Shown: in pieces, positions 36,021-39,883 of the stretch | Numbering within the stretch: position 1 is the first letter of the stretch | Layout: each line of letters opens with the position of its first letter | Sequence record: NC_048002.1 | Origin: Escherichia phage SRT7 | Strand: one strand, 5' to 3' | Length of the DNA stretch: 39,883 bases | Translations under genes and position numbers: made by a program | The notes under the pieces: model-generated | Database searches by the model: none | Told to the model about the DNA's origin: nothing | The model's input: the letters and a program-made list of their open reading frames with translations, nothing else

Positions 36021-36072
36021 CTTCACTCTCAGAGGCCACCGCTTGGCGACCTCTTGAAGTGTAGACTATCAG
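36021..36072 (-). promoter_or_regulatory. RNase III-type processing hairpin (R1-like) between kinase and RNAP genes
   Basis: Minus RNA CTGATAG...GAGGUCGCC-AAGC-GGUGGCCUC with lower stem CACU/AGUG; overlaps kinase stop. Confidence 0.5.
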
Positions 36073-37223
36073 CCCATAAACATTGCGTCAAGACGCTTAT
36101 CAATATCAAGCGGTCTGCCCATATTGATTTGCTCTACCATTCGGTTGTGGCGCTCCACGTTCTTCTCATGGATGACCCGGATGCCGTTCCTGTGGTGAAT
36201 CTTAAGACCCTCAGGGATTGCCCACTTCACACCGCGACCACAGATGTACTTAGCGTCCGGCTTAATTCCTACCACCAGTTCCCACGCTCGGTCATCATCC
36301 TTGCGAACCATATTGGCTTTCGCTTGGCGTTCTTCACGCTCGGCTCTAATCTTAGCCAGTTGAATCTTACGGCGGCGATGTGCCTTTCGGTTCTCCAGCT
36401 TGTTCAACTTACGGAGGTGACGTTGTTGCCACTTCTCAATAGCTTCCTCAAGTTTCATCGCTTGGATTTCCTCAAGTAGCGCCTCAAAGTCTACCCGGAA
36501 GTCATCCGGCTCACCGAGACCGTTTGTGTAGCTCACCGGGTCAGTGATGACGATGTTGTCGTTATGGTCCAGCATCACGTTACCTTCATGCATGTCGAAG
36601 CCAGCCACCCCATAGAAGAACTCGCGGATGTGCGCTGCGGTTCCCTGTAGACCCTGAGTGACCTCATCGTATGCCTCGCAGAAGTCCCATGCGTCACTGT
36701 CGCGATTCAGAATCTGAGTCTTCACGATGTTGTACTGGTCGAGGACTTCAGGTGACTTTGCACTGTATGGCTTAAGGTGGTCCAGAACGACCGTGTAACA
36801 GGCATCATGTCGTGCAATCGCATGGATTACTGGCAACCCTTGTAGACCCGGATTAGCTCGGCAGAATGCAGCGTACGCAGCGCCTGAGTCTTCTTTCTTA
36901 AAGCCCACCTTAATGACGCGACCCGGCAGACTTACGTGGCTGAATACTGCACTGAAGAATCCATTCCCTAGGAACGTATAGCCCAGCTCGCGAGCCATCG
37001 CCACCAGCGAACCCCACCAGTCCTGTGAGTTAACGAACTCGGTATCGTCCACGCCACAGCCGCAATCAGTCTCGTAGTTTACAAGGTCAGCAAGAATACC
37101 CACGAGACCCGGTTGGCGTTCATCGAGTCGGTCGATAGGTAGCGCTTTCAGTGCTTTCATTCGGTACTCAAGTGCTTGATACACGGTAGGGACCACGTGA
37201 TGTGCTGCGTTCATTGGGTTCAT
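36069..37223 (-). CDS. gp0.7: Serine/threonine protein kinase, host shut-off (T7 gp0.7-like)
   Basis: 384 aa; NGHFSA/NGFFSA, RVIKVGFKKEDSGAAY, FDMH.GN, ITDPVS and C-terminal DKQLDAMLMG-type blocks as in T7 gp0.7. Confidence 0.9.
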   Translation of the reverse strand: MNPMNAAHHVVPTVYQALEYRMKALKALPIDRLDERQPGLVGILADLVNYETDCGCGVDDTEFVNSQDWWGSLVAMARELGYTFLGNGFFSAVFSHVSLPGRVIKVGFKKEDSGAAYAAFCRANPGLQGLPVIHAIARHDACYTVVLDHLKPYSAKSPEVLDQYNIVKTQILNRDSDAWDFCEAYDEVTQGLQGTAAHIREFFYGVAGFDMHEGNVMLDHNDNIVITDPVSYTNGLGEPDDFRVDFEALLEEIQAMKLEEAIEKWQQRHLRKLNKLENRKAHRRRKIQLAKIRAEREERQAKANMVRKDDDRAWELVVGIKPDAKYICGRGVKWAIPEGLKIHHRNGIRVIHEKNVERHNRMVEQINMGRPLDIDKRLDAMFMG

Positions 37224-37247: not shown

Positions 37248-37604
37248 TTAGAATGTTACAGATTCGTGGATTGTGCGGGTTACAGTGATGCCACCGGCAA
37301 GCTCTACAGCGTAGCGAATAGCCTCCTCTTTGGTGCGGAAGTCCCGTCCAGATACATGATAGGTGTCACCATTAACCACGTTATCAGGCTTACGGGCTAC
37401 GCTCACGGCATTAGATAGACTAAGCACTCCGTTGCGGTAATCCGTCACCCACTTATTGAGGCTCGGGACGGACACGCCAAGCTCAACAGCCAAACTTGTA
37501 GTTCCTGTCTTCCCGCGAGGGCCATCCGGTAGTGCAAGGTAACGCTGTACGGCTGCAATGCGGAAACCTACGGTGTACATAATGCGAGTATTGATGGTAG
37601 TCAT
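37248..37604 (-). CDS. Hypothetical helix-turn-helix protein (118 aa), early region
   Basis: GGAGA RBS; segment FRIAAVQRYL...GTTSLAVELGVSVPSLNKWVTDY resembles IS3 OrfA / HTH_Tnp_1-type DNA-binding motifs. Confidence 0.7.
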   Translation of the reverse strand: MTTINTRIMYTVGFRIAAVQRYLALPDGPRGKTGTTSLAVELGVSVPSLNKWVTDYRNGVLSLSNAVSVARKPDNVVNGDTYHVSGRDFRTKEEAIRYAVELAGGITVTRTIHESVTF

Positions 37605-37625: not shown

Positions 37626-37823
37626 TTAGTGAGTTGCTACGTAAAACATCCCGACCTTATTGGCCTTAAAGCGCCCATTCGGTTCCCGTACAGTGAATCG
37701 CGGCAGGACGTACCATTTGAAGTACGCTAGGTTCGCGCTGTGTACAATGAGACCCTTACGGAAGTCTCGCACAAAGAGAGCCACAATGGCTGCGTACACT
37801 GCTATGATGAAAGCTATAGTCAT
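37626..37823 (-). CDS. Small membrane protein (65 aa), early region
   Basis: N-terminal hydrophobic helix TIAFIIAVYAAIVALFV; GGAGACC RBS. Confidence 0.65.
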   Translation of the reverse strand: MTIAFIIAVYAAIVALFVRDFRKGLIVHSANLAYFKWYVLPRFTVREPNGRFKANKVGMFYVATH

Positions 37824-37846
37824 TCGCTAGGTCTCCATTAGGTTAT

Positions 37847-37886
37847 CTTTGAGCGCCCACCTGTGACGCTCTCGTTAGCCTATCAG
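37847..37886 (-). promoter_or_regulatory. RNase III-type processing hairpin (R0.5-like)
   Basis: Minus RNA CTGATAGG...GAGCGUCAC..GGGCGCUC; same CTGATAGG stop-containing motif as the other three copies. Confidence 0.45.
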
Positions 37887-38005
37887 TAACCACCTGTGAG
37901 TTTAACAGTAAGTGTCTCGGTGTCTGCCTCGAACTGAGCGCCACGCTTCAGTAGGTCGTAACAAACATCCATAAACCACTCGTAATCGTGACAACGTATA
38001 ATCAC
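37883..38005 (-). CDS. Small early protein (40 aa, GTG start), speculative
   Basis: GGGAGG 7 nt upstream of GTG; GTGA overlap with upstream ORF; stop sits in conserved CTGATAGG motif. Confidence 0.35.
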   Translation of the reverse strand: MIIRCHDYEWFMDVCYDLLKRGAQFEADTETLTVKLTGGY

Positions 38006-38154
38006 TCTACAACCTCCCATACAACCGTCCCACTAGGTAAGCGCTTGCCGAATCCTTGTTGGTTCCTGAAGCGTGCACGAGCGTCCCTTTCGTTGTACCC
38101 GTAGCATGTCATTGAGTAACACCAGCCCGGAACGTGGATAGAGTAGCGTTTCAT
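38002..38154 (-). CDS. Small early protein (50 aa)
   Basis: ATG overlaps upstream stop (ATGA); MKRYSIHVPGWCYSMTCYGYNERDARARF... Confidence 0.5.
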   Translation of the reverse strand: MKRYSIHVPGWCYSMTCYGYNERDARARFRNQQGFGKRLPSGTVVWEVVE

Positions 38155-38312
38155 TTGAATAGCCCCTCACGTTTATCATAATCGCGCTTGTTAGCGTCAT
38201 GCCATGCCTTAAGTTTAGCCATAGTTTCATCATGTGAGCGGTCGCCCAGTTGGTACAAGAGGCGATACATGACCATGATACTTTGAGAGATACCATAAGT
38301 TGGCTTGTTCAT
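38151..38312 (-). CDS. Small early protein (53 aa)
   Basis: ATG directly after SAMase stop (TAAATG) with GGGAGG RBS 8 nt upstream. Confidence 0.6.
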   Translation of the reverse strand: MNKPTYGISQSIMVMYRLLYQLGDRSHDETMAKLKAWHDANKRDYDKREGLFK

Positions 38313-38765
38313 TTAGATTACCTCCCAGATACGCCCTTCAGCGTCCATTGTGTAGCACTCACCCTCAGGTGCATCCACTTGCTGGAAGGAGCCATTCAGT
38401 CGAGTCGCCTTGTACCCCTCCAGACCCTTACAGAACAGTAGACCAGCGGTGTGAGTCTGTGACTTATAAACCATCACACAGTCTTGCTCAAAGTCATTAC
38501 AGGCCAAACGTGCCACGTTGATAGCTTGCGCCTTGTTGTCACACAATACACGATAGGTGCGCTCGGTGGTAGCGACCTCCTGACCCTCTTCACGATAGCA
38601 GCCAGTCAGACCAGTACACTCAAGGACACCGTAATATTCCGGCTCAGCCTGTAAGAGCGCCTTAAGGTCCAGTTGACGTGCCATGTTGACCATATCGGAC
38701 AGGTTAGCACGTGCAGCGGAGACCAGTACATAGAATTTGTTAGCTGGTTCGTTCGTGTAAATCAT
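38313..38765 (-). CDS. gp0.3: S-adenosyl-L-methionine hydrolase/lyase (T3 gp0.3-like SAMase, anti-restriction)
   Basis: 150 aa; EPAN.FYVLVSA...DLTGCYRE...KAQA.NVARLACN..EQDC..VYKSQTHTAGL matches recalled T3 SAMase; first gene after early promoters. Confidence 0.85.
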   Translation of the reverse strand: MIYTNEPANKFYVLVSAARANLSDMVNMARQLDLKALLQAEPEYYGVLECTGLTGCYREEGQEVATTERTYRVLCDNKAQAINVARLACNDFEQDCVMVYKSQTHTAGLLFCKGLEGYKATRLNGSFQQVDAPEGECYTMDAEGRIWEVI

Positions 38766-38990: not shown

Positions 38991-39019
38991 AAGTTACTAC
39001 GCTAAGTACACATTGTCAA
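38991..39019 (-). promoter_or_regulatory. Candidate host sigma70 early promoter (A3-like)
   Basis: Minus TTGACA-17nt-TAACTT; near-duplicate of the promoter at 39153-39181. Confidence 0.5.
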
Positions 39020-39066
39020 GCTATTTGTTCACTTAGCGTAGCACCTTAAGTATCGTGCTAATCGTT

Positions 39067-39091
39067 CACCTCAGGTATTCGCGCTGAGGCA
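39067..39091 (-). promoter_or_regulatory. Stable hairpin in early leader (possible processing site)
   Basis: Plus cacctcag-gtattcgcg-ctgaggca; 8-bp stem on minus RNA including two GU pairs; followed by CATGTAG..TATCAG resembling the RNase III motif family. Confidence 0.35.
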
Positions 39092-39152
39092 CCGCATAGA
39101 CCATGTAGTTTATCAGTTCGGTCTCGCTGTACTGCTGTGTTGCTTGCTATCT

Positions 39153-39181
39153 AAGTTACTGCGTTTCGTTCTGCATGTCAA
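39153..39181 (-). promoter_or_regulatory. Candidate host sigma70 early promoter (A2-like)
   Basis: Minus TTGACA-17nt-TAACTT. Confidence 0.5.
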
Positions 39182-39305
39182 CACTTTATTTCGTTAGGTG
39201 GCTCTGCGTAGTTCCTTAGGCGTTCTATCGTGTGGACTCGAACCCGTCAACCTATCAGACCACTTAGAGACGCTATCGCAGCGTGTCGTCGTGTTGATGG
39301 ATGCT

Positions 39306-39334
39306 ATTAAGCCATAGACCGATGAGGATGTCAA
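39306..39334 (-). promoter_or_regulatory. Candidate host sigma70 early promoter (A1-like)
   Basis: Minus TTGACA-17nt-CTTAAT; spacing to A2/A3 candidates (~150 bp) mirrors T7 A1-A3. Confidence 0.4.
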
Positions 39335-39406: not shown

Positions 39407-39708
39407 AGGCCGTGATAATAGCTATTGACTCTTTGGTCTCTTTAAGTTACCTTATAAGCGTACCACAGATAGACCGCTCTTTAACAATCTGACCAGTAGC
39501 ACCAGCATCACAGCAAAGATGCGACCAATAAGCCCTGAGAGCCTAGCTAATCACCTCTCTGATAAACTGATAGCAAACCATAAGCCATGAGACTGACGGT
39601 CTCTGATAAGCGTCACAGCGCTACTGAGAGTAAACCAAAGGATGGGCACCGACCAAAGGTGATGACCTGAGGTGACATTGAGTGATGACCTTATGATGTC
39701 CAACAGAT

Positions 39709-39883
39709 AGGGACTGAGGCATAACCAAATGTCACCAAAGGTCTCCCAAATGTCACCAAATGTCTCACCGCACCACCTCAGGAGAACCAAAGGTGAACTG
39801 AAAGAGGAACCAAAGGGGAAAGGGACACCAAAGGTGAACTGAAAGAGGCCTATGGGGGAACTTTGGGAGTTGTATCTTTGAGA
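39709..39883. repeat. Direct terminal repeat, 175 bp, identical to 1-175 (phage left-end copy)
   Basis: Exact match to the first 175 nt of the window. Confidence 0.95.

What the first reader, a model, noticed from the sequence alone, without database searches (positions are those of the whole stretch)
37626..38312. Chain of translationally coupled small early ORFs between SAMase and the HTH gene
Immediately after the SAMase stop come ORFs of 53, 50 and 40 aa linked by TAAATG, ATGA and GTGA junctions, then a 65-aa protein with a hydrophobic N-terminal helix. The first has a GGGAGG RBS. This is the T7 0.4-0.6 region, known to hold small host-manipulating proteins, and these sequences do not obviously match the ones I recall. 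The track's alternative 87-aa ORF in the third frame lacks an RBS.
Basis: partly seen in the sequence, partly recalled or inferred. Interest (0 to 1): 0.5.

Follow-up and report, generated by a model that had tools for sequence, protein, structure and literature searches.

The report
Four small early phage genes
The stretch holds four real, tightly packed small early genes of a T7-like coliphage; all four belong to existing phage protein families and one is a divergent relative of the T7 cell-division inhibitor Gp0.4, so the finding is correct but ordinary.

Summary
On the minus strand, right after the SAM lyase gene, lie ORFs of 53, 50, 40 (GTG start) and 65 aa. Their junctions are TAAATG, ATGA and GTGA, and each has its own Shine-Dalgarno site. 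The window is a nearly complete Foetvirus (T7-like) genome in reverse orientation, and this is the 0.3-0.7 early region.

All four ORFs are under purifying selection and match PHROG families:
- ORF1 is a divergent T7 Gp0.4-family protein (the FtsZ inhibitor). It keeps four of six FtsZ-contact positions in family-typical states.
- ORF2 is a 50-aa beta-beta-alpha-beta domain, also found in unrelated myoviruses and Pseudomonas phages.
- ORF3 belongs to a family that is always 40 aa long.
- ORF4 is 65% identical to T3 gp0.6, with an N-terminal membrane anchor.

The 87-aa alternative frame has no ribosome-binding site and no family match, and its start codon is missing in a close relative.

Related phages fill the same fixed order of slots with different subsets of these genes. 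Phage P1723 lost most of ORF2 and ORF3 through a 194-bp deletion, so these two are dispensable.

These are new members of known kinds, and functions other than ORF1's are unknown. Translational coupling itself is untested.

The parts
38313..38765 (-). Gene 0.3 equivalent: SAM lyase ('SAMase'), 150 aa. It is the upstream neighbour, and its TAA stop abuts the ORF1 ATG.
   Evidence: Pfam PF23780 S-AdoMet_lyase, E 2.2e-40. phrog_2226. P1723 annotates it as S-adenosyl-L-methionine hydrolase.
38151..38312 (-). ORF1, 53 aa, pI 9.4. A divergent member of the T7 Gp0.4 family and a candidate FtsZ-binding division inhibitor.
   Evidence: - Hits phrog_5058 (1.6e-7) and phrog_25044, the same two profiles that T7 gp0.4 cross-hits.
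- Iterative HMM searches started from ORF1 and from T7 gp0.4 converge on the same number of ORFs (67), and each result list contains both ORF1 and T7 gp0.4.
- hhalign against the intermediate family gives probability 94.6% for ORF1 and 96.9% for T7-type gp0.4.
- A 96%-identical protein carries a precomputed PF26807 Phage_T7_GP04 hit.
- 11 synonymous against 2 nonsynonymous codon changes relative to L092.
- SD GGGAGG.
38002..38154 (-). ORF2, 50 aa, pI 9.5. A stand-alone beta-beta-alpha-beta domain of unknown function. It is an accessory cassette.
   Evidence: - phrog_13225, E 7e-31.
- Found in 87 phage records, including Certrevirus myoviruses and Pseudomonas phages.
- 182 clusters at 50% identity in the 1.84-billion-protein library.
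- dN/dS 0.07-0.28.
- AlphaFold2 model with pLDDT 93.6.
- Mostly deleted in P1723 and absent in L093.
37883..38005 (-). ORF3, 40 aa, pI 4.6, GTG start overlapping the ORF2 stop (GTGA). Function unknown. It is an accessory cassette.
   Evidence: - phrog_33188, E 1.2e-11, aligned from residue 6 of the 45-aa version.
- All five homologues aligned are exactly 40 aa and start at the same codon.
- The start is ATG in L092 and L093.
- Found in 93 phage records, including Vibrio phages.
- pN 0.13 against pS 0.80 relative to Cronobacter phage B1.
- SD GGGAGG, 7 nt upstream.
37824..37882 (-). 59-nt spacer between ORF3 and ORF4, carrying the ORF4 SD (GGAG). It holds only a weak 7-bp hairpin.
   Evidence: RNA fold gives -20.7 kcal/mol with z-score -1.15, against z-score -3.05 for the T3 R0.5 RNase III site. 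The spacer is identical in L092. No Rfam match.
37626..37823 (-). ORF4, 65 aa, pI 10.4. A T3 gp0.6-family protein with an N-terminal transmembrane anchor and a conserved basic C-terminal tail (PRFTVREPNGRFKANKVGxFYxATH).
   Evidence: - phrog_2385, E 1e-25.
- 65% and 62% identity to T3 gp0.6 and AP10 0.6.
- 77 related loci in viral contigs.
- dN/dS about 0.1-0.19.
- Residues 2-18 are hydrophobic in 57 distinct homologues, median Kyte-Doolittle value 1.96.
- The AP5 genome paper reports a TMHMM-predicted transmembrane domain in gene 0.6 (PMC4283147).
38033..38296 (-). 87-aa alternative-frame ORF overlapping ORF1 and ORF2. Judged not to be a gene.
   Evidence: - No SD (+0.1 kcal/mol).
- No PHROG or Pfam hit.
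- The start codon is absent and many residues are changed in L092.
- The frame is only 30 aa long in AP10.
37916..38109 (-). Stretch missing in phage P1723: a 194-bp deletion between GACA microhomologies. It fuses the first 15 codons of ORF2 in frame to the last 10 codons of ORF3.
   Evidence: Alignment. Breakpoints and the fusion peptide MKRYGIHVPGWCYSMTLTVKLTGGY.
39019..39334 (-). Context only: three perfect TTGACA -35 hexamers on the minus strand, at 39334, 39181 and 39019. They sit where the host-RNAP early promoters A1-A3 lie in T7 and T3.
   Evidence: Direct pattern search. The stricter consensus scan found no minus-strand promoter, so these are candidates only.

Best explanation
The interval is the '0.4-0.6' segment of the class I (early) operon of a Foetvirus-type T7-like coliphage, read on the minus strand. 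It encodes four separate, real small proteins.

Expression (inferred). By synteny with T7 and T3, the genes are presumably transcribed by host RNA polymerase from the left-end promoters, on the same transcript as the SAM lyase. Each ORF has its own SD. Abutting or overlapping stop and start codons would allow ribosomes to pass from one ORF to the next.

The four proteins:
- ORF1 is a divergent member of the T7 Gp0.4 family. Most likely (inferred) it is a two-helix hairpin that binds monomeric FtsZ and blocks cell division.
- ORF2 is a 50-aa beta-beta-alpha-beta domain. ORF3 is a 40-aa acidic protein. Both are independent accessory cassettes of unknown target, and most plausibly small binders or inhibitors of host proteins.
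- ORF4 is a T3 gp0.6-family protein. It is anchored in the inner membrane by its N-terminal helix, with a conserved basic tail in the cytoplasm.

Related phages fill a fixed order of slots: 0.3, then 0.4-like, [AP10 ORF3], [ORF2], [0.45], [ORF3], 0.6, [0.65 or HTH], then 0.7. They use different subsets of these cassettes. This genome is one combination.

Shown here: coding status, family membership, cassette modularity, and dispensability of ORF2 and ORF3. Inferred: transcription, coupling and all molecular functions.
For: Genome context:
- The closest genome is Escherichia phage P1723 (Foetvirus), 96% identical over the left 10 kb.
- P1723 has the same order: SAM lyase, 53-aa gene, 65-aa gene, 118-aa gene, kinase.

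Coding status:
- PHROG hits for all four ORFs.
- SDs and junctions verified.
- Synonymous-biased substitution.
- Identical independent gene calls on Logan contig L092.

ORF1 as a Gp0.4-family member:
- Shared PHROG cross-hits with T7 gp0.4.
- Reciprocal HMM convergence on a 67-member set containing both proteins.
- Profile-profile links through the intermediate family.
- tblastn matches at 51-55% identity to Klebsiella-phage members.
- Precomputed Pfam Phage_T7_GP04 hit on a 96%-identical protein.
- Of the six T7 Gp0.4 residues whose substitution abolishes FtsZ inhibition (PMC13423816), M32 and L35 are identical in ORF1. V15 to M and W28 to H are the commonest states in the family.

Modularity:
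- Slot order across the fetched T7-like early regions.
- The P1723 deletion.
- ORF2 is precisely absent in L093, with an ATGA joint.
- ORF3 plus the spacer is 99-100% identical to L092, while the flanking ORFs are 87-91% identical.

ORF2 fold: pLDDT 93.6.

ORF4 membrane anchor: and PMC4283147.
Against: - No expression data of any kind.
- The simple sigma-70 scan found no minus-strand promoter. Only perfect -35 hexamers with weak -10s were seen.
- ORF1 against T7 gp0.4 gives no pairwise BLASTP alignment. The direct profile comparison is weak, so homology is transitive.
- ORF1 carries H38 where 60 of 62 family members have Tyr, and Y39A kills T7 Gp0.4 activity. It also has an unusual Y20 at the V22 position. 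FtsZ binding may therefore be lost or altered.
- ORF3 and ORF4 have no functional annotation anywhere.
- The ORF4 model was made from a single sequence and only its N-terminal helix is confident.
Confidence: 0.8

Rival explanations
1. The 87-aa ORF (38033..38296, minus strand) is the real gene. ORF1 and ORF2 are then chance frames.
For: It is the longest open frame in the interval.
Against: - No SD (+0.1 kcal/mol).
- No family hit.
- Its ATG is absent in L092, and differences from L092 are scattered through the frame.
- It is cut to 30 aa in AP10.
- Substitutions follow the codon phase of ORF1 and ORF2.
Confidence: 0.02
2. ORF3 starts at the upstream ATG (38020), giving a 45-aa protein that overlaps ORF2 by 19 nt. 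The GTGA junction would then not be a start.
For: ATG is the commoner start codon, and the mechanical ORF list reports the 45-aa form.
Against: - All five aligned homologues are 40 aa and begin at the codon aligned with the GTG.
- That codon is ATG in L092 and L093.
- The PHROG profile aligns from residue 6.
- GGGAGG lies 7 nt before the GTG, giving -10.9 against -7.1 kcal/mol for the ATG.
- The independent caller chose 40 aa.
Confidence: 0.04
3. ORF1 is a Gp0.4-family protein by descent but no longer acts on FtsZ. It may have another target, or it may be an immune-evasive or neutralised allele.
For: - H38 replaces the near-invariant Tyr, and Y39A inactivates T7 Gp0.4. Y20 is a unique state.
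- Five of the six residues that T7 Gp0.4 needs to activate CapRel-Ebc differ in ORF1: A12 to Q, T14 to I, L16 to V, S19 to R, R23 to Q.
- ORF1 is rare: only two clusters at 90% identity were found in 5.8 billion proteins.
Against: - Strong purifying selection, 11 synonymous against 2 nonsynonymous codon changes.
- The invariant Met, the Leu and the hydrophobic contact positions are kept.
- It keeps the family's position right after gene 0.3.
Confidence: 0.3
4. ORF2 and ORF3 are decaying remnants or functionless filler. P1723 lacks them and still grows on E. coli K-12.
For: - The 194-bp deletion in P1723, which was isolated on MG1655.
- ORF2 is absent in L093.
Against: - dN/dS well below 1.
- Intact ORFs of fixed length in 87 and 93 phage records across several phage families.
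- A confident compact fold for ORF2.
- Dispensability in the laboratory is normal for T7 class I genes; Gp0.4 itself can be lost in viable T7 escape mutants.
Confidence: 0.05
5. ORF2 and ORF3 are joined by a programmed -1 frameshift into one fusion protein, by analogy with T7 0.6A/0.6B.
For: ORF3 lies in the -1 frame of ORF2. T7 annotates a possible frameshift product, 0.6B, in this region.
Against: - There is no X XXY YYZ slippery heptamer in ORF2.
- The ORF3 frame is open for only 30 nt upstream of its start.
- ORF2 and ORF3 occur separately in other phages.
Confidence: 0.02

Closest known systems
T7 Gp0.4 (gene 0.4; Pfam PF26807 Phage_T7_GP04), the FtsZ-sequestering division inhibitor
   Same: - ORF1 sits immediately after gene 0.3 and is about 50 aa.
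- It carries the family motif YG(L/I)(T/S)...Y...G...M-A-x-L-K...K.
- The invariant Met and Leu contact residues are kept.
- It falls in the same HMM-converged family.
   Different: - There is no detectable pairwise similarity to T7 Gp0.4.
- W28 is replaced by H, V22 by Y and Y39 by H. There is one extra loop residue.
- Five of the six CapRel-Ebc-activating surface residues differ.
- Activity on FtsZ is untested.
T3 gp0.6 / AP10 0.6 / phiYeO3-12 0.6 (phrog_2385)
   Same: - ORF4 is 62-65% identical and has the same 65-aa length.
- It has the same hydrophobic N-terminus and C-terminal motif.
- It occupies the same slot just upstream of the kinase region.
   Different: In this genome and in P1723 it is followed by a 118-aa HTH-like gene rather than by gene 0.65. 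The function of the whole family is unknown.
T7 gp0.6A/0.6B (reported MreB inhibitor)
   Same: Same gene-number neighbourhood. P1723 labels the ORF4 homologue 'putative 0.6A protein'.
   Different: It is not homologous. T7 0.6A hits phrog_8393 and ORF4 hits phrog_2385. The 0.6B extension shows no similarity to ORF4. The MreB function must not be transferred to ORF4.
Yersinia phage vB_YenP_AP10 ORF4 and ORF6 (hypothetical proteins)
   Same: ORF2 is 88% identical to AP10 ORF4, and ORF3 is 48% identical to AP10 ORF6, which is also 40 aa. They appear in the same relative order.
   Different: In AP10 gene 0.45 lies between them, and an Ocr gene replaces the SAM lyase.
Small phage inhibitor proteins with a three-strand, one-helix fold (T7 Gp2, AcrIE2, AcrIF9)
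   Different: The scores are at the level expected for any small alpha/beta unit, and Foldseek finds nothing significant. This is a resemblance in shape only, not evidence of membership.

Membership tests
T7 Gp0.4 family (PF26807 Phage_T7_GP04), tested for ORF1 | Sequence or profile similarity to the family | tested here: met
   - phrog_5058 and phrog_25044 are hit by both ORF1 and T7 gp0.4.
- Reciprocal HMM convergence.
- hhalign probabilities of 94.6% and 96.9% through the intermediate family.
- Precomputed PF26807 hit on the 96%-identical protein P0001.
- The local Pfam copy lacks this model, so ORF1 itself could not be scored against it.
T7 Gp0.4 family, tested for ORF1 | Gene position directly downstream of gene 0.3 (Ocr or SAM lyase) in the early operon | tested here: met
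   The TAAATG junction with the SAM lyase. The 0.4-like gene directly follows gene 0.3 in most of the fetched T7-like early regions.
T7 Gp0.4 family, tested for ORF1 | The six FtsZ-contact residues needed for activity in T7 (V15, V22, W28, M32, L35, Y39) | tested here: inconclusive
   ORF1 has M13, Y20, H27, M31, L34 and H38. Two are identical to T7, two are the commonest family states, and two (Y20, H38) are unique in the family.
T7 Gp0.4 family, tested for ORF1 | Two antiparallel helices; binding of monomeric FtsZ; filamentation on expression | not testable with these tools
This needs AlphaFold-Multimer or AlphaFold3, or an experiment.
T3 gp0.6 family (phrog_2385), tested for ORF4 | Full-length profile match, about 65 aa, N-terminal transmembrane helix, conserved NGRFKANKVG tail | tested here: met
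   E 1e-25 over residues 1-65. 35 invariant columns shared with T3 and AP10. Hydrophobic residues 2-18 across 57 homologues.
T7 gp0.6A/B (MreB inhibitor), tested for ORF4 | Sequence similarity to T7 0.6A or 0.6B | tested here: not met
   The two fall in different PHROGs with no cross-hit. The 0.6B extension is unrelated.
phrog_13225, tested for ORF2 | Full-length profile match; stand-alone protein of about 50 aa | tested here: met
   E 6.9e-31 over residues 1-48. Invariant P9, G19, E22, A25, R26, R30, R38, P40 and G42 across distant members.
phrog_33188, tested for ORF3 | Profile match; 40 aa ending in LTGGY | tested here: met
   E 1.2e-11. Alignment A3 has 13 invariant columns and every member is 40 aa.
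Translationally coupled gene chain | Stop and start codons abutting or overlapping | tested here: met
   TAAATG, ATGA and GTGA in the window. The same overlaps appear in L092.
Translationally coupled gene chain | Downstream translation depends on upstream translation | not testable with these tools
   This needs reporter fusions with upstream stop mutations. Each ORF has its own SD, so coupling may be unnecessary.

The most novel reading that the evidence does not exclude
ORF1 may be a still-active FtsZ-binding Gp0.4 variant whose outward face has been remodelled. Five of the six residues that T7 Gp0.4 needs to trigger the CapRel-Ebc defence differ in ORF1. That would make it a natural immune-evasive allele of a division inhibitor. 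It would also mean the Gp0.4 family is far more widespread in T7-like phages (most SAM-lyase and Ocr early regions sampled here) than the recent literature states. In addition, ORF2, which is shared by unrelated podo-, myo- and siphoviruses, could be a mobile inhibitor of a conserved host or defence protein.
Probability: 0.2. Interest if true: 0.55.

Novelty: new member of a known kind. Interest (0 to 1): 0.27.

Why it matters
The finding mainly corrects annotation. The four small genes, including a GTG-started 40-aa one, are real. The 87-aa frame should be dropped. The '0.6A' and 'gp0.35' labels in the sister phage P1723 are misleading.

The more useful by-product concerns Gp0.4. Its family appears in most of the T7-like early regions sampled here, including Klebsiella phages. 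This genome carries an outlier allele with changes at positions known to matter for FtsZ inhibition and for sensing by a CapRel defence. That gives a cheap, direct test of how a phage effector diversifies under immune pressure.

The precise cassette gain and loss at NTGA joints shows how this region is shuffled.

Tried and rejected
- Pairwise BLASTP of ORF1 against T7 gp0.4 gave no alignment. Homology only emerged through profiles.
- The local Pfam copy had no hit for any of the four ORFs, or for T7 gp0.4 itself; it lacks PF26807. NCBIfam had no hits.
- PDB sequence searches for all four found nothing meaningful.
- A word-based search in viral contigs with ORF1 found no relatives.
- The ORF3/ORF4 spacer was tested as an RNase III site like T3 R0.5. 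It has only a weak hairpin, z-score -1.15, so this was rejected. Rfam had nothing relevant.
- The consensus promoter and terminator scan found no minus-strand promoter. One terminator-like hit lies inside ORF4 and is at chance level.
- An ORF2-ORF3 frameshift fusion was rejected: no slippery site.
- Homology between ORF3 and ORF2, or between ORF3 and the second domain of the 107-aa fusion proteins, was rejected (hhalign probability below 1%).
- The T7 0.6B extension is unrelated to ORF4.
- Fold searches with the ORF2 model gave only generic small alpha/beta matches in PDB and uncharacterised family members in BFVD. The afdb50 library was unavailable.
- Longer proteins containing the ORF2-like domain gave no usable functional hint; the only Pfam hit was pentapeptide repeats in a single protein.
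- Literature searches found no functional study of T3-type gp0.6, ORF2 or ORF3.

Full report
**What is there.**
The window is an almost complete T7-like genome in reverse orientation. Its last 10 kb is 96% identical to the left end of Escherichia phage P1723 (Studiervirinae, Foetvirus). On the minus strand the gene order is as follows:
- SAM lyase, 38313..38765
- ORF1, 53 aa, 38151..38312
- ORF2, 50 aa, 38002..38154
- ORF3, 40 aa from GTG at 38005 to 37883
- a 59-nt spacer
- ORF4, 65 aa, 37626..37823
- a 118-aa HTH-like gene, 37248..37604
- the gp0.7 kinase, 36069..37223

Each ORF has its own SD. Pairing energies to the anti-SD are -11.5, -7.6, -10.9 and -6.4 kcal/mol. The 87-aa alternative frame has none (+0.1).

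**Are they genes?**
All four hit PHROG families: phrog_5058 at 1.6e-7, phrog_13225 at 7e-31, phrog_33188 at 1e-11 and phrog_2385 at 1e-25. The 87-aa frame hits nothing.

Substitutions are concentrated at third codon positions, and dN/dS is about 0.07-0.28 for ORF2 and 0.1-0.19 for ORF4. For ORF3, pN is 0.13 against pS 0.80.

A 39.5-kb Logan contig (L092) carries the same chain, and an independent gene caller called it as 53/50/40/65 aa. Against that contig, synonymous versus nonsynonymous codon changes are 11:2 for ORF1, 10:6 for ORF2 and 15:4 for ORF4. The only change in ORF3 is GTG to ATG at the start codon. The 87-aa frame loses its ATG there.

All five ORF3 homologues aligned are exactly 40 aa and start at the same codon. 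That settles the GTG start.

Tight junctions are normal in this genome type: 12 of 46 junctions in P1723 have a gap of 0 or less.

**What each ORF is.**

*ORF1.* It shows no BLASTP similarity to T7 gp0.4. However, the two proteins share cross-hits to phrog_5058 and phrog_25044 in the same register. Iterative HMM searches over 81 T7-like early regions, started from either protein, each return 67 ORFs, and both result lists contain ORF1 and T7 gp0.4. Profile-profile comparison links each of them to the intermediate family over the same 39 columns, with probabilities 94.6% and 96.9%. tblastn finds Klebsiella-phage members at 51-55% identity. The 96%-identical protein P0001 carries a precomputed Pfam hit to PF26807 'Phage_T7_GP04'. 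That model is missing from the local Pfam copy.

T7 Gp0.4 is a two-helix protein that sequesters monomeric FtsZ. Substituting V15, V22, W28, M32, L35 or Y39 abolishes its activity. A12, T14, L16, S19, R23 and K36 are needed to trigger the CapRel-Ebc defence (PMC13423816). In the family alignment ORF1 has M, Y, H, M, L and H at the six FtsZ positions. Met and Leu are family-invariant or nearly so. M13 and H27 are the commonest family states or among them. Y20 and H38 are unique to ORF1. Five of the six CapRel positions differ. FtsZ inhibition is therefore the best-supported function, but it is inferred, and I put it at roughly 0.55-0.6.

*ORF4.* It is 65% identical to T3 gp0.6 and 62% identical to AP10 0.6. 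Its N-terminal hydrophobic helix is conserved in 57 distinct homologues and is modelled confidently. A transmembrane domain in gene 0.6 was also noted for phage AP5 (PMC4283147). ORF4 is not related to T7 gp0.6A/B, so the MreB-inhibitor function must not be transferred to it.

*ORF3.* It equals AP10 'ORF6' and occurs in 93 phage records, including Vibrio phages. No function is known for either ORF2 or ORF3.

**How the region is organised.**
Across the fetched loci the early region follows one collinear slot order: 0.3 (SAM lyase or Ocr), then 0.4-like, [AP10 ORF3], [ORF2], [0.45], [ORF3], 0.6, [0.65 or HTH], then 0.7. Different phages fill different subsets of the bracketed slots.

Close relatives show the turnover directly:
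- P1723 has a 194-bp deletion between GACA microhomologies. It fuses ORF2 codons 1-15 in frame to the last 10 codons of ORF3.
- An ENA contig joins the ORF1 stop to the ORF3 start as ATGA, with ORF2 precisely absent.
- L092 lacks the 118-aa gene.
- ORF3 plus the spacer is 99-100% identical between the window and L092, while the neighbouring ORFs are 87-91% identical.

ORF2 and ORF3 are therefore independent accessory cassettes that are dispensable in the laboratory.

**Expression.**
No RNase III-type hairpin or Rfam element lies in the interval. No slippery site supports an ORF2-ORF3 frameshift. Three perfect TTGACA hexamers on the minus strand (39334, 39181, 39019) sit where the A promoters lie in T7 and T3, but the stricter scan did not call them. 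Early transcription by host polymerase and translational coupling are inferences from synteny and architecture.

**Verdict.**
The genes are ordinary members of existing, mostly uncharacterised, phage small-protein families. The only point of more than routine interest is the outlier Gp0.4-family allele, together with the breadth of that family.

Noticed in passing
window 37248..37604 (-): The 118-aa 'HTH' gene is itself a variable cassette. It is present in the window and in P1723, where it is labelled 'F-box domain-containing', which looks spurious. It is absent from the otherwise collinear contig L092, where the kinase follows ORF4 directly. Relatives at 44-50% identity occur in 22 phage records (Kayfunavirus, Citrobacter SH3, Cronobacter GW1). 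Pfam gives only a weak HTH_Tnp_1 hit (E 0.01).
   Followed up: partly
L004:915-1082 (T3 gene 0.65) and homologues: The T3 gp0.65 family aligns with the Gp0.4-like family profile (hhalign probability 94.7%, E 5.6e-8, 27 columns, shared AMAYGAS motif). One contig (L080) has a Gp0.4-like N-terminus fused to a gp0.65-like C-terminus. This suggests possible paralogy between genes 0.4 and 0.65.
   Followed up: partly
window 37824..38005 compared with L092:2808-2989: ORF3 plus the 59-nt spacer differs by one base from contig L092. ORF1, ORF2 and ORF4 on either side are only 87-91% identical. This suggests recent recombinational exchange of that segment.
   Followed up: partly
L093 (ENA contig NODE_617888, 508 bp): ORF2 is precisely absent, and the ORF1 stop and ORF3 start are joined as ATGA. 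Cassette gain or loss therefore seems to occur exactly at the overlapping stop/start joints. The contig has very low coverage and probably a 1-nt error that makes the caller fuse ORF1 and ORF3.
   Followed up: partly
proteins P0028, P0034, P0035, P0047, P0053, P0057, P0144, P0196: Some relatives of ORF2 are 107-110 aa, with a second small domain added at the C-terminus. Two proteins carry the domain twice in tandem, and one of these is followed by pentapeptide repeats. No Pfam family covers the ORF2-like domain.
   Followed up: partly
window 39019..39334 (-): Three perfect TTGACA hexamers lie about 155-160 nt apart on the minus strand. Two of them have the same TAACTT element 17 nt downstream. 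They are likely early promoters, but the consensus scan missed them because the -10 elements are weak.
   Followed up: no
window 39560..39883: An array of short repeated motifs (ACCAAAGG, GTCACCAAA, GGTGAACTGAAAGAGG) lies at the right end of the window, which is the phage left end. It resembles the repeat arrays next to the terminal repeat of T7-like genomes.
   Followed up: no
L001:1761-1838 (P1723): The in-frame ORF2-ORF3 fusion remnant (25 aa, MKRYGIHVPGWCYSMTLTVKLTGGY) keeps the ORF2 start, SD and ATGA junction. It is not annotated in the P1723 record.
   Followed up: no
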